From Eledone cirrhosa (taxonomy: Eukaryota), in the NCBI GenBank assembly GCA_964016885.1, contig OZ024743.1, forward strand, positions 303,676,001 through 303,740,000: a stretch of DNA of 64,000 nt. Reading direction: 5' to 3'. Positions 8,004-46,490 of this stretch are shown here, piece after piece (position 1 is the stretch's first letter; every line of letters starts with the position of its first letter). The notes beneath the pieces were generated by a model. It worked only from the letters and a program-made list of their open reading frames with translations. It searched no databases and was not told the origin of the DNA. Both the position numbers and the translations under genes were made by a program.

Positions 8004-9759
8004 ATGAAAAGTGTAAGTTTCTACACAAAAGGTTATAGAGAAAATTGAGGTTGGTAATGGCACATGGAATATATAAGAGACAGAAATTTTTTTGTGAAAA
8101 AACATAATTTTATAAGGTAAGGAGAGAATAATGGGTTTAAAAAATGACCGGTTTCGATGGGACTGCAAAAGCCATCTTTTAGCGGGACGCTAACACAAGA
8201 AAAATCCCCTTGAGCACCATATTGCGAACTGCGCAGGAATGACACTACCCAACTTTAAAATCTTCCCCTTCTACAAGTGCTCAGATTCGTTCACACAGCA
8301 ACAAAGAATAAACAAAGAAAATCTATTCCTTAACAAATTTAAACCAAAACTAAACGAGTTATCACCCCAATAGAATTGTCATAAAATATAAACACACATA
8401 CGCACGGAGTGACAGATATGTGTGTGTATGTGTGCATGTATATCACTACTATTAAAGACCAGAGACCAATTCTGTAGAATCAGGTTTATTCGTTGACAGA
8501 CCATGCCTTTGTGTGACCAACACATCCATGTTAAACCCTGCACGTGCACACATATATCTATATATATATGCCCACACAGAATTCACCACTGTCGGTTACG
8601 GCCCAATCTACATGAAGAACTCAATGTGATCAGAATGACTTGTATTTTAATTTCACTGTCCTAACTTCTTATATTATGGAAAAAATATATGTGTATGTAT
8701 GTATATATATATATATTTGGAGGCCATTTCTATATGTATGTGTATGTGTGTGTGTGTATGTGTATGTGTGTGCATGTGGATGTATGTATGTGTATGTAGT
8801 GTGTGTGTGTGTGTGTATGTATGTGTGTATCTGGATATATGCGTATGTGTATATATATGTGTGTGTGTGTATATATATATGTGTGTATGTGTATATATCT
8901 GTGTGTGTGTGTGTCTGTATGTGTGCAAGTATATACGCGTGTGTGTGTATGTATGTGTGTGTGTATATATATATATATATATATGTGTGTGTATATATGT
9001 GTATGTACATGTGTGTATATATGTGTGTGTATGTATGTGTGTGTGTGTGTGTCTGTATGTATGTGGGTATCTGGATGTATGTGTATGTATATATATATGT
9101 GTGTGTGTGTATGTATGTGTGTGTATGTGTATACGTGTATGTGTGTATATGTATGTGTGTGTGTATGTATGTGTGTGTATATGTATATATATATATATAT
9201 ATATATGTATGTGTATGTATATGTGTGTGTGTGTGGATGAGGGTATGTGTGTATATATAGGTGTAAGTGCACTAAATCCCTTTCTATCACTCTCCCCTCT
9301 CCTACTGACCACAGGGAGATATATGTATGTATATTGCTTCCACCCTCTCACTGACCAGCAGCTGGCCATCTGGCCATTGCTAAATCTGACCTTTATAAAA
9401 AAAACCATTCCCCACAAATAACTCCTCATTCACTACCAGAAAGGCACACAGCAGTCAACTTGCTGCTACCAAGATGAAAACTACTATGAAATTACACACT
9501 GAATTTTATACTTGAATTTTCAAATCTCAAATTTTAACTCTTCTTATTATTAATTTTTCTTAACATTAATGAACATTTGAAAAGATGGCTTTTGCAGACC
9601 CATCGAAACCGGTCATTTTTTATACACTTTATTCTCTCCTTACCTTATAAAATTATATGTTTTTTCACAAAAAAGTATTCTGTCTCTTATATATTCCATG
9701 TGCCATTACCAACCTCAATTTTCTCTATAACCTTTTGTGTAGAAACTTACACTTTTCAT
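8004..9759 (+). mobile_element. 5'-truncated PLE with inverted pLTR (element G)
   Basis: Inverted arms 8004-8180 and 9580-9759, both ending at (TA)n. 8183-8373 encodes a frameshifted GIY-YIG-like C-terminus (RDANTRKIPLS/HHIANCAG...FKIFPFYKC...RINKENLFLNKFKPKLN). HHR-like TTGAAAA gatgg...ccatc GAAACCGGTC at ~9574-9617. Confidence 0.8.
8690..9260. repeat. Compound (TG)n/(TA)n/(TATG)n microsatellite
   Basis: Directly visible; explains the overlapping C/V/Y/I/M and H/T ORFs. Confidence 0.95.
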
Positions 9760-9877
9760 ATATATATATATATATATATATATATATATATATATATATA
9801 TATATATATATATATATATATATATATATATATATATATATATATATATATATATATATATATATGTATATATATAT

Positions 9878-10062
9878 TAGAGCAAACAACACAAGCGCTC
9901 TATCTCAAAATTATTTTTGAAAAGCATTAGAAATGCGCAACTGGTAATAACTTAAAACTAAACTGAATACTAACCAGTACTCATTACTAATTTATACTTA
10001 TTCCTAATTAAACTATTTTTCACTCGGAAAAATGTGTCACCATTTTCTTTTCCTTTTACTAA
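9878..10062 (+). repeat. Dispersed HHR-like pLTR repeat (family I), single arm
   Basis: Similar to 60003-60200 and to the reverse complement of 60283-60375. Starts at tagagcaaacaa directly after (TA)n. Confidence 0.8.
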
Positions 10063-10901
10063 AGATGTATCATACCTAAACTACTTCTAAATTCCTCAAC
10101 TACGTAGTTTCGTGGCATAATCAAAAACAATACATATTACTAATTATATCTAATGTTTCTTCTCTCTTCATAATGTACTTTATAGCTCTGATTCTGGTTC
10201 AGTCTAATTCATTCGGATTGGTTTGTCTCAGTTATTCATAGAGCAACATCGGTTAAGGTTGGCACCATTAACTCAAGGAAGGATGTGGATATATTCATGC
10301 ATATGTGTGTCCGCGCATGTATCTGTGTGTTTCTCTCTCTCTCTTTCTCTCTCTCTCTCTCTCTCTCTCTCTCTCTCTCTCTCTCTCTCTGTATATATAT
10401 ATATATATATATATATATATATATATATATATATATATATATATATATATATATATATATATATATATATATATATATATTGTTCAGTTGATAAAAGTTA
10501 GGTCATAAACAATCTCCCGGTTTTTTCGTAAACTGACATGAAGCACTGGACAACGATGTTAACAGCAAGTTAAACCATTAGCATATCAATGGATAGAAAA
10601 ACACATATCAATTCATCTGAAGAAAACGTACTGGGTGTTTATTAGTTTATTACATAACTACCTTTGCATCTTTGAAATACGTATGGTGAATTGTATAATA
10701 ACATGAAGATGAACAAATAAAACTGCTTCTCTTGTTTATTACACACACGCACGAACACACGCACACATACATTCACATATATACACATACATACATACAT
10801 ACATACATACATACATACATACATACATACATACATACATAAATATATGTATATGGATAACAGAAATCAAAGAACGCCTATATACTCAAACAATTTTTAT
10901 T

Positions 10902-43500: not shown

Positions 43501-44267
43501 ATTTATGTATCAAAAGATTGGATTGAGACAAGTGATTCTAACTAGACTTTTTCCTTCGTACAACTGTAAGATGTAATATCATATACTGATTATATATGCA
43601 ATTGAAGAGGGCAAACAACATTTATATACATTGTTTTCACAGTCTTAGCAACAATGAGGAGAAATAATTATTTCCTTATTTGAATAGGGCTCCGTTAATC
43701 GTTCAGGTATCTAGTTTTACTGTATTTATTCCCATTGCATGTCAAAGAGCTTCTACTAGAGATCGGGATGACACATGAAGTGTTATTGGAATTTGTTGGA
43801 CGAAGATTCCAAAGCGCCTGAAGACTAGCTCACAAATTGTATCCCTCTTACAATCTGAAGATATGATCAATATTATAAATGAAAACTTACGAAGCACCAA
43901 TGATCCGCCTATGAAGATAAATATATATTATAATTTATCAGATCTCATACCTGATTGATCACTGCATTGCGTTCTCTGTTTTCACATCACATCCATAGAT
44001 ATATGACAGCACACACACACACACACACACACATAACAAAACACAGGCATATATATATATATATATATATATATTCATATGAGGTGATCAATCTCCAATG
44101 AAGTCAATAAGTCTAACCTCAGTCCATTACCTAAAAGCTTAGAAATACGAGGCAAATACGCTTCTAAACGGAGAAATGAAGACACTGGGAATACTAGAAT
44201 TTAATCTTAACGCTCAATACCATTGAGTTAAACGTCATATGCCATTGATTTTGAAACATGTATATTA

Positions 44268-44425
44268 TACACACACACACACATACACACACACACACAC
44301 ACACACACACACACACACACACACACACACACACACACACACACACACACACACACACACACACACACACACACACACACACACACACACACACATATAT
44401 ATATATATATGTATGTATGTATGTA
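44268..44425. repeat. (CA)n plus (TA)n/(TATG)n microsatellite
   Basis: Directly visible. Confidence 0.97.
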
Positions 44426-46490
44426 TGGCGCAATTGTACGTGCGCATGTGTTGGTGGCTGGCTTTCTTTGTTTATGTCTGTGCCTGTTCTATTTCCTATA
44501 AATTACAAGTTCTAAATAAAGATCGATAAATAAGTACCAGACATGATGACTTAAGAAATGAGGTGGATATTGATCGACAAATCGAAGGCGGTATCGGGTC
44601 ATGACCACAATATTATAACATTAGAAAATGATGAAGGGATAAAACATTGTTCAGAAAGTAATGCAGGTTTTTAAAGTTTTTATCTAAAACGACATTTATT
44701 AGTGAAGCGCATATCTCATTGATCAAAATACAAAAAAAAAAGTAGAAAGTATATTAGCAGCTGCATAGGTTCGCTAACAATATGCACATCTATGTTGTCT
44801 GCTATCTTTGAATTCTTGAGTTCAGGCTATAGGTTCTTCGGAGGGATTTTCTTGCATTTATTTGTATAATGATGTATTTTCCTTCCAATATATTTTAGTC
44901 ATGTTTAAAAATATGGTCGTCAGAATGAGGCAGTGTTCCGTTGTCCGATTCGTCCTACTTCACGAAGGCTGGTTGTGCGATGTGTGGTTGAGCTTTCTAA
45001 TTCAAGAGGATTGAAAATGTATAGATTAATTTATTTTCCTATTATTGAGTACTTTCATCGTTTTCTTTTCAATTTTTCAATACCTCTCTACTGGGTTGTA
45101 AATATTAAGTAGCGAAACAACTTTTACAGACAATGGATATGTTAGAATAGGTATTAATTGGTTCTATGATAATGAGCAAGTGTTGAATGCTTTAAAAAAT
45201 TCTGGTTCCACTATGTCTAAACAATTTCACTATCGATACGTGTGATAACGAAGGCAATTATATTTTTGTCGATTCCTTTAGTAAATATACAAAATATTAT
45301 TAAATGATATTGTATTAACTTATTGTAAATCGTTTATTCAATTCTAAATTAACGTTTTAAGTAATATATCTTTCGTAAAACAATCCATCATCATATACGC
45401 CTGAGTAAAACTTGTGTTACCAACAAATTTTTATCTGGGTAGGGAGTGGAGATTTTCTGCTTCAGCAGCCGGTTTTGTAATTTATATTATATTCCCAAAT
45501 GACAAGAAAACATGCATTGCACGTAGAGGAGATGTACTTATACAATTGCAACATCATGTATATTGTAAAACACAATATATATTGTTTAAATACGACGATA
45601 ATGTATTATCGAAAATGCAATCATGTGAGAGCGTATAATATAAACGTATAATGCAGAACATGGAAGGAAATTTGACTGAGCAGGAATGTTTATCCATTTC
45701 TGAACATCCGACCTCTTCTTGAGACGACCATATTTGAATTAGATTTATGCAGCAGTCAGCCGAACGCGGACAACTACAAGCTCCCATATCATCGGACATA
45801 TCGTTGAATACAATACAAGCGTCGGATTATTACACACACACACACACACGCGCACACACACACATACACACATATATGTATGCATTATATACATACACAC
45901 ACACACATATATATATACATATATATATATATATTAGGTATAGGATTATCCAAGATGTAGTGATGGTTAATTACTACACTGGATATGGTTGACGTACGGT
46001 AAGAGGTTACTCTACGAGTTATGGAAGAATTGTACAAGAAACTTAGTTCCTGATCCTTCAGTATTCCGGAGTGTATATAAAGAATGAATAATAACAGGTA
46101 GACATCATAAAAAGGTAGTTTATTCCGTGTGCTTACAAGTGTTTCCACGGTGGTGCTGCAGCCTAGTTCCGCTACGTGCAAATTCACAAGTATTTGCACG
46201 TAGCGGAACTAGGCTGCAGCACCACCGTGGAAACACTTGTAAGCACACGGAATAAACTACCTTTTTATGATGTCTACCTGTTATTATTCATTCTTTATAT
46301 ACACTCCGGAATACTGAAGGATCAGGAACTAAGTTTCTTGTACAATTCTTCCATAACTCGTAGAGTAACCTCTTACCGTACGTCAACCATATCCAGTGTA
46401 GTAATTAACCATCACTACATCTTGGATAATCCTATACCTAATAATCGCCTCCTACACAGTTGAGCAACCACACCGACACACGGCATTAAT

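What the first reader, a model, noticed from the sequence alone, without database searches (positions are those of the whole stretch)
8170..46198. Inversion breakpoints cluster inside the hammerhead core-1/stem II
Seen: four junctions fall within the HHR. Element G breaks at aaaagatgg (core-1/stem II boundary, 8180), the mini-palindrome at the stem II loop (23870), element E at GAAGG inside core-1 (31926), and element D at a stem II sub-hairpin (46184-46198). None is at the GUH cleavage site, and each arm reads through that site. Inference: the templates were uncleaved or re-ligated RNA, and the folded ribozyme acts as an RT pause or strand-joining signal, a second role beyond self-cleavage.
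Basis: partly seen in the sequence, partly recalled or inferred. Interest (0 to 1): 0.75.

Follow-up and report, generated by a model that had tools for sequence, protein, structure and literature searches.

The report
Penelope stubs end at RNA start
These four mirror-image junctions are real joints between two truncated copies of Penelope-like jumping genes, but across the genome each family's copies stop at its own fixed spot (inside the predicted ribozyme in one family, 30 or about 140 bases in front of it in two others, only weakly in the fourth), likely the start of the element's RNA rather than a stall at the ribozyme fold.

Summary
All four junctions exist and fall inside hammerhead-like motifs of Penelope-like elements (PLEs). 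At least six other inverted insertions in the window join outside their motifs. I mapped 305 arms from four families genome-wide. In 100 of 102 junctions a tailed arm joins an untailed arm. Ends are not uniform, but the pile-up does not follow the ribozyme. Relative to the predicted cut (0): P (23870) has a sharp edge at -44, inside loop II. E has a sharp edge at -112..-116, 30 nt upstream of its motif. G piles at -152..-186. D breaks at the same rate inside the motif as 3' of it. The P, E and G edges sit on initiator-like motifs. G has TATAAAA 33 nt upstream. Six of 7 E arms ending at the initiator A carry an extra G, as expected from a copied cap. Likely mechanism: two target-primed cDNAs start at the two internal sites, run towards or off the capped RNA start, and are end-joined. 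Hairpins supply the joint only occasionally. Uncleaved templates are supported; a ribozyme pause is not. No RNA data were available. The scan reached this reading before, in this genome and in others.

The parts
7999..8180 (-). Family G inverted arm, tailed end (+154), 5' end at -34 inside core-1
8183..9764 (+). Family G direct arm: end of a GIY-YIG-type coding region (read by eye), 3' region and pLTR; also a tailed end, which is unusual
9426..9431 (+). Initiator-like TCATTC of G (A = -186 in the family consensus), upstream limit of the family's breakpoint pile; TATAAAA 33 nt upstream in the family consensus
9572..9619 (+). Minimal type I hammerhead motif of G, U3-A8 core (TTGAAAA at 9577), palindromic stem III, predicted cut after 9614
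   Evidence: 11 of 12 drawn pairs
23736..23876 (-). Family P tailed arm (+99 to -41)
23875..23925 (+). Family P untailed arm (-30 to +20); 2-nt TA overlap with the left arm; junction in loop II of the parent hammerhead, near the family edge at -44 (TCATTT)
31793..31926 (-). Family E untailed arm (+55 to -78), ends in core-1-like CCGAAGG
31932..32411 (+). 5' part of the family E tailed arm (internal, low-complexity E sequence)
   Evidence: 88% to L285
32602..39653 (.). Nested inverted-repeat PLE insertion (family H) splitting E's tailed arm; hammerhead motifs at both outer ends, junction far from them
39681..40664 (+). 3' part of the family E tailed arm with pLTR and tail
40407..40412 (+). Initiator-like CCAGTG of E (A = 40409 = -115), sharp family edge; extra G in front of arms that end here
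40439..40529 (+). Hammerhead-like motif of E with a deviant core-1 (CCGAAGG), 5-bp stem I, predicted cut after 40524
45932..46198 (-). Family D tailed arm (+202 to -64), includes the whole sub-hairpin
46192..49466 (+). Family D untailed arm, more than one 3165-nt unit; starts at -49 of the 5' pLTR; 7-nt overlap with the left arm equals the hairpin stem
46464..48815 (+). D reading frame, 783 codons with one in-frame stop; RT-type motifs, C-terminal GIY-YIG, Hydra-clade motifs
49299..49410 (+). Hammerhead motif of D (CTGAGGA at 49303, predicted cut after 49406) with a 70-nt loop II; initiator-like CCATTC just upstream (A = 49295 = -111, weak edge only)

Best explanation
Each palindrome is a head-to-head joint of two truncated copies of a Penelope-like element, nearly always one tailed and one untailed, and the short copies of families P, E and G pile up at a family-specific point that is likely the capped 5' end of an RNA started from the pLTR promoter, not a stall at the ribozyme. 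Shown: two fixed 3' ends per family, tailed+untailed pairing, edges at -44 (P), -115 (E) and -186 (G), initiator-like motifs there, an extra G at E's edge, read-through of the GUH site, and mostly 0-6-nt overlaps or short insertions at joints. Inferred: both nicked target strands prime cDNA at the two internal start sites; on RNA that begins in the same pLTR the enzyme has only about 65-340 nt to copy and runs off the end; the two cDNA 3' ends are trimmed or extended and end-joined, using a self-complementary stem when one is at hand. Long arms would come from the downstream pLTR of uncut read-through RNA. Breaks fall in the hammerhead because it lies between the priming sites and the RNA start. 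In P the start would lie inside loop II, so that transcript would carry only the 3' half of the ribozyme. In D the evidence for an edge is weak, and early termination explains the data equally well.
For: Tailed+untailed pairing in 100 of 102 junctions: P 50/51, E 13/13, G 5/5, D 32/33. Break rates per 1000 arm-nt: P 81.1 at -30..-44 against 8.6 in the 3' part of the motif and 3.6 beyond the edge; both arm types stop there although their starts differ by 79 nt (74 vs 86). E 47.1 at -101..-115 against 5.3 in the motif and 3.2 beyond. G 14.1 at -152..-186 against 1.3 in the motif and 0.4 beyond. Second E listing, first 100 of 355 matches counted by eye: 30 end at -112..-116, none clearly at -117..-125, 67 pass, 3 ambiguous. 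Six of the 7 ending at A(-115) have G in front (p=0.0006 at 22% G; 4 of 5, p=0.01, after dropping two that the partner could template), against 1 of 7 at -114. An extra G marks capped full-length L1 ends (PMC11702581, passage). The strict initiator TCAKTY (consensus recalled) lies at the edge in P and G and covers 1-2.5% of each 405-nt region within 2 nt. G has TATAAAA 33 nt upstream. The D. virilis Penelope start lies in the pLTR (PMC2377424 section 15; PMC8557442 passage). Two internal RT starts, cutting and extension of both strands, and an uncut dominant substrate are shown in vitro for an anole PLE (PMC11167929).
Against: No RNA run was listed, so no start site is observed. Edge windows and the looser motif for E and D were chosen after seeing the data, so p-values are descriptive. 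Arms of one insertion are not independent, and about 30 ends were reconciled or set by hand. D shows only a weak edge: about 6 of 100 listed arms end at -109..-120 by eye, and 5.0 vs 2.0 per 1000 (p=0.08). In P the G before A(-44) cannot be told from the partner's natural C(-45), and ends spread over 15 nt. G's pile is 35 nt wide and rests on 12 ends. E's edge also resembles a splice acceptor (CCCAG|TGAG). No shared downstream promoter element was seen by eye. Both arms of the window's G insertion are tailed. In D's body there is a small excess of predicted structure just ahead of breaks (p 0.01-0.06 for 30-40-nt windows, 18 tests).
Confidence: 0.72

Rival explanations
1. The folded hammerhead stalls the enzyme or acts as a dedicated strand-joining signal.
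For: All four window junctions are inside motifs. 107 of 126 P ends lie inside the motif. P tailed arms break 4.5-fold more often in the 3' part of the motif than 3' of it (p=0.0009). The window D joint and 3 of 51 P joints use a stem. There is a weak generic structure effect in D's body.
Against: D inside vs 3' of the motif: ratio 0.88; D sub-hairpin not enriched (2.4 vs 1.8 and 3.0). G motif not enriched. E and G edges lie outside the motif. The P pile is in loop II, not at the foot of a stem, and arms that pass -44 cross the rest of the motif at a low rate.
Confidence: 0.08
2. The edge is an RNA 5' end made by processing (3' splice site, trans-splicing or another cut), not by transcription start.
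For: AG lies at or near each edge: E CCCAG|TGAG with 7 of 42 sampled arms ending at -113, P TTTAG|TCC. In D. virilis an intron ends at hammerhead helix I (PMC4209133, part 2).
Against: Many E arms include the AG and an extra G (19 of 30 end at -114..-116). P arms run 5-6 nt past the AG to -43/-44. No common upstream exon or leader is seen at the joints.
Confidence: 0.08
3. Plain early termination: short cDNAs are commonest, and the hammerhead happens to lie close to the priming sites.
For: Fits D: about 2.5 per 1000 nt for the first 170-310 nt, then 0.5-0.8; at equal arm length, inside vs outside the motif does not differ (p=0.75 and 0.10). It probably explains the window's G, E and D junctions.
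Against: Cannot give edges at the same sequence position for tailed and untailed arms whose starts differ by 37-83 nt, nor the 15- to 36-fold drop beyond the edge in P, E and G.
Confidence: 0.07
4. Self-priming (fold-back) of a single strand, possibly on an antisense template, as proposed for palindromic junctions in Adineta vaga.
For: Perfect or near-perfect palindromic joints occur (window D; P joints of the TAAATTTA type; PMC3846280, passage).
Against: Arms differ in both ends: one tailed, one untailed, and often very different lengths (window D 267 vs 3275 nt). In the window D copy the short arm carries the loop, so it could not have templated the long arm. Most joints have no spacer symmetry.
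Confidence: 0.05

Closest known systems
Insertion units of C-terminal-endonuclease Penelope-like elements: pLTR, adjacent inverted 5'-truncated copy, tail at one end (PMC8557442 passages; PMC3846280 passages)
   Same: Head-to-head arms, tail on one end, palindromes and microhomology at the joint, hammerhead motif in the pLTR, (TA)n flanks.
   Different: Tails are 37-142 nt rather than 30-40 nt. The passages read do not map breakpoints or tie them to a start site; PMC3846280 reads the palindromes as self-priming on an antisense template.
Hydra clade of PLEs (PMC8557442, section 11)
   Same: D has RWK, DKT, CxCX5C linker, CxxC and CxH around E and N, a C-terminal GIY-YIG and (TA)n targets. P-related coding copies are 30-44% identical to D over the matched stretches.
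   Different: No tree was built. G has DKG and is probably another clade; no coding copy of E was retrieved.
Poseidon PAc of Anolis carolinensis in vitro (PMC11167929, parts 1-2 of 4)
   Same: Two internal RT start sites that define the tail, both target strands cut and extended, uncut RNA as the main substrate.
   Different: That work does not address where cDNAs end or how they are joined. In D the two start sites lie upstream of the first ATG (+250), not within the ORF.
LINE-1 twin priming and cap-derived extra G (PMC11702581, passages)
   Same: Both target ends prime on RNA; joints by short microhomology; extra G at complete 5' ends.
   Different: L1 arms cover adjacent, mostly non-overlapping RNA segments; here both arms copy the same segment from two fixed starts.

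Membership tests
EN+ Penelope-like element | Single ORF with RT and C-terminal GIY-YIG | tested here: met
   D: 783-codon frame with one stop; GIY-YIG at E=2e-4, just under Pfam's cut-off; FDI, GITMG and YRDD motifs by pattern. Pfam itself did not call the RT; Atlas neighbours score 0.95-0.98, with RVT_1 on 16-20% of members in two clusters.
EN+ Penelope-like element | pLTR from a partial tandem, inverted truncated 5' partner, optional tail | tested here: met
EN+ Penelope-like element | Phylogenetic placement of the RT | not tested
   No reference PLE proteins were fetched and no tree was built
Hydra clade | RWK, DKT, CxCX5C linker, CxxC/CxH in EN, (TA)n targets | tested here: met
   Family D only
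Type I (minimal) hammerhead | Core CUGANGA/GAAA/NUH with stems I-III | tested here: inconclusive
   Stems can be drawn in all four. Core canonical in D; U3-A8 variant in G and part of P (variant described in PMC4209133); C3-A8 in other P copies; CCGAAGG in E. Rfam did not report any hammerhead.
Type I (minimal) hammerhead | Self-cleavage at NUH | not testable with these tools
   No pile of arm ends at the site
Structure-induced RT stop at the hammerhead | Excess of ends at stems of the motif in every family | tested here: not met
   D ratio 0.88, G 1.4 (p=0.66), E 2.7 against 3' (p=0.10) with the peak outside, P peak in loop II
Run-off at a capped transcription start | Sharp edge shared by both arm types, initiator motif, extra G | tested here: inconclusive
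   Met for E (edge, loose motif, G); edge and strict motif for P and G; weak for D
Run-off at a capped transcription start | RNA 5' ends mapped at the edge | not testable with these tools
   No RNA holder listed

The most novel reading that the evidence does not exclude
PLE integration runs through two cDNAs primed at the two tail-defining sites, and the pile-up of arm ends is a genomic record of each family's capped start. The start has moved freely against the hammerhead, in family P into loop II, so the promoter-born RNA begins with half a ribozyme. Only read-through or downstream copies hold a whole one, whose cut would remove the priming sites from the 3' end and so act as a brake on full-length transposition.
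Probability: 0.35. Interest if true: 0.6.

Novelty: new member of a known kind. Interest (0 to 1): 0.36.

Why it matters
How PLEs form inverted pLTR ends and what their hammerheads do are open questions. Four families in one genome, with edges at different distances from the motif, separate a fold effect from an RNA-end effect and give exact predictions for start-site mapping. The proposed second role of the ribozyme as a pause is not needed. The architecture itself is long known, and the scan has already noted this reading elsewhere.

Tried and rejected
Rfam at E up to 1: 126 matches, none a hammerhead, nearly all microsatellite artefacts. A canonical CTGANGA pattern for the P parent: 0 matches, because the parent core is YTGAGAA. 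The idea that P is one inherited palindrome came from the similarity-ranked search (33 of 40 with a mirror hit). It was rejected when a position-ordered sample showed varied joints. A peak at the cleavage site in P was suggested by 3 sampled arms at 0, but genome-wide counts gave 196 x 16/30 against 110 x 23/30, ratio about 1.25. An apparent strong structure effect in D (p=1.5e-5) was mostly regional and shrank under local shuffles. RNA: no RNA holder listed. Contigs of four coded runs of unrecorded kind from one study were laid on D and two of them on E: no start or splice information; 2 of 3 strand-changing joints in E had one end at 40409/40410, possibly from the same sample as the assembly. 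PDB search gave nothing useful. Two hammerhead scan scripts were too strict (and the second half). Six literature searches were run; none listed a paper that maps PLE breakpoints to the hammerhead or to the start site. Subscription papers and supplements were not seen.
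Full report
Setting. The window lies in a 3.0-Gb genome rich in (TA)n; the organism was not determined. It holds at least ten inverted-repeat insertions with hammerhead-like motifs (four by eye). [quoted passage not shown] Its RWK, DKT, CxCX5C, CxxC and CxH motifs match the Hydra clade as described in PMC8557442 section 11. Positions below are relative to the predicted cleavage nucleotide (0).

The four junctions. All are real. G ends at -34 in core-1, E at -78 in core-1, P at -41/-30 in loop II with a TA overlap, and D at -64/-49 with a 7-nt overlap equal to a sub-hairpin stem. 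E's partner arm is E sequence split by a nested 7-kb insertion. At 23870 the apparent 9-bp stem is created by the inversion. The parent, seen in longer copies, has a 5-bp stem I, core YTGAGAA, a 6-bp stem II around a 39-nt loop and a 6-bp stem III. P has 14,055 exact matches to a 30-mer. The motifs are predictions: Rfam found none, and the cores of E and part of P deviate from the canonical one.

Sampling. Anchors were placed at or 3' of the cut so that upstream ends were not selected. D: 60 of 66 clusters from the first 100 of 366 exact matches. P: 70 loci from the first 100 of 14,055 places. E: 29 loci from the best 40 of 1,392 candidates. G: 29 from the best 40 of 56. The window's own copies were left out. 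Arms were mapped by BLAST. Fourteen entries were set by hand for subfamily indels or the stem III palindrome, 14 were reconciled between two runs and one tandem duplicate pair was dropped, and one reconciliation was undone and one duplicate dropped. That left 126 P, 42 E, 34 G and 103 D arms.

Architecture. Each family has two fixed 3' ends (P +20/+99, E +55/+138, G +112/+149, D +60/+202). In 100 of 102 junctions one tailed arm meets one untailed arm (the D list there still holds the duplicate). This matches the two internal RT start sites and the two-strand cutting and extension shown for the anole element (PMC11167929). Overlaps of 2 nt or more occur in 9 of 51 P, 3 of 13 E, 2 of 5 G and 14 of 33 D joints; the rest are blunt or carry short insertions, some poly(A/T). 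Three P joints use stem III.

Where arms end (events per 1000 arm-nt). P: 8.6 in +5..-29, 81.1 in -30..-44, 3.6 in -45..-90. E: 5.3 in the motif, none in -86..-100, 47.1 in -101..-115, 3.2 beyond. G: 1.3 in the motif, 0.9 in -46..-151, 14.1 in -152..-186, 0.4 beyond. D: 2.6 3' of the motif, 2.3 inside, 0.5 in -112..-600; its sub-hairpin is not enriched. Tailed and untailed arms stop at the same place in P, E and G, so the edge is fixed by position, not by length. Its distance from the cut differs fourfold between these families, and only in P is it inside the motif. The windows were chosen after seeing the data and arms of one insertion are not independent, so the p-values only describe. In D, length alone explains the data: at equal length, inside and outside the motif do not differ (p=0.75 and 0.10).

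What the edge is. The upstream limits coincide with TCATTT (P, -44), TCATTC (G, -186, with TATAAAA at -219) and CCAGTG (E, -115); D has CCATTC at -111. The initiator consensus TCAKTY and the TATA position are recalled. The strict motif covers 1-2.5% of each region within 2 nt. In a second E listing, the first 100 of 355 matches counted by eye, 30 end at -112..-116, none clearly in the next 9 nt, 67 pass and 3 are ambiguous. Six of the 7 that end at A(-115) have a G in front, against 1 of 7 at -114. Dropping two that the partner could template leaves 4 of 5 (p=0.01). An extra G reflects capping at full-length L1 ends (PMC11702581, passage). The same test is ambiguous in P. In D about 6 of 100 listed arms end at -109..-120, a weak edge at best. 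Penelope's start is known to lie in the pLTR (PMC2377424; PMC8557442). A splice acceptor is the main alternative for E, but 19 of the 30 arms include bases of the AG.

Cleavage site. No E, G or D arm ends at -1..+3. In P, tailed arms starting at the cut number about 105 against about 84 at a control site. The templates were therefore mostly uncut when copied, as found in vitro (PMC11167929). If P's RNA starts in loop II it lacks core-1 and could not cut in cis.

Mechanism. Shown: ends, pairing, edges, motifs, joints. Inferred: both target strands prime cDNA, one at each internal site. On RNA that starts in the same pLTR the enzyme runs off the capped end after about 65-340 nt. In E, 8 of 13 joints have one arm at the edge and the other anywhere, which suggests that one complete cDNA is joined to a trimmed or unfinished partner. 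Stems are used as joints when present. The hammerhead lies between the priming sites and the RNA start (in D it takes about 111 of 171 or 313 nt), so many breaks fall in it without any role of the fold. Against this reading: no RNA data, a weak D edge, a broad G pile from 12 ends, two tailed arms in the window's G copy, and a small excess of predicted structure ahead of breaks in D's body (p 0.01-0.06 in a few of 18 tests).

Literature seen. PMC3846280 passages; PMC11167929 parts 1-2 of 4; PMC4209133 parts 1-2 of 4; PMC2377424 passages and section 15; PMC8557442 passages and section 11; bioRxiv 10.64898/2026.07.22.740005 part 1 of 5; PMC11702581 passages. No supplements were read; those of PMC11167929 (genomic ends) and PMC8557442 (consensus files) may bear on novelty. 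Inverted truncated partners, tails and palindromic joints are published. Searches listed no paper that ties breakpoints to the start site or to the ribozyme. My reading was recorded before I looked at earlier scan notes; several of them reach the same reading in this and other genomes and are not independent support.

Verdict. The pause or joining role of the ribozyme is not supported as the cause of clustering; uncleaved templates are. These are new members of a known kind, with a useful four-family dissociation that makes the start-site model directly testable. Interest 0.36.

Noticed in passing
window 24789-26192 (-): Stop-free 467-codon frame with an aminotransferase class I/II domain (E=1e-13) among the repeat stubs; apparently intronless over this stretch.
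   Followed up: no
L280 2944-3757, L153 675-1530, L172: An approximately 810-860-nt non-coding form of family P shares one 5' end preceded by a G run in three insertions; possibly a non-autonomous element with a second start site.
   Followed up: partly
L282, L283, L287: Tandem 3.4-kb coding relatives of P, 30-44% identical to D's protein over the matched stretches, with a variant at the edge motif.
   Followed up: partly
window 59804-60203 and 9878-10062: Three arms of one family (K) all begin at about the same place, roughly 40 nt upstream of core-1, another edge outside the motif (by eye).
   Followed up: no
window 9577, 17241, 39565, 40444, 49915 (-): Non-canonical hammerhead cores are common here: TTGAAAA/TTGAGAA (U3-A8) and CCGAAGA/CCGAAGG (U4C).
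   Followed up: no
L154, L171, L277: P joints with 14-20-nt poly(A/T) insertions right after the TTT at the edge, suggesting slippage or terminal addition at run-off.
   Followed up: no
window 7999-9764: Both arms of this G insertion carry the tail, unlike 100 of 102 sampled junctions.
   Followed up: no
window 32602-39653: A 7-kb inverted-repeat PLE (2.8-kb arms, 97% identical) is nested in the TA-rich body of element E.
   Followed up: partly
window 5944-6009: Short perfect palindrome (GCTCAGCTAGTAC arms around (TA)n), not assigned to a family.
   Followed up: no
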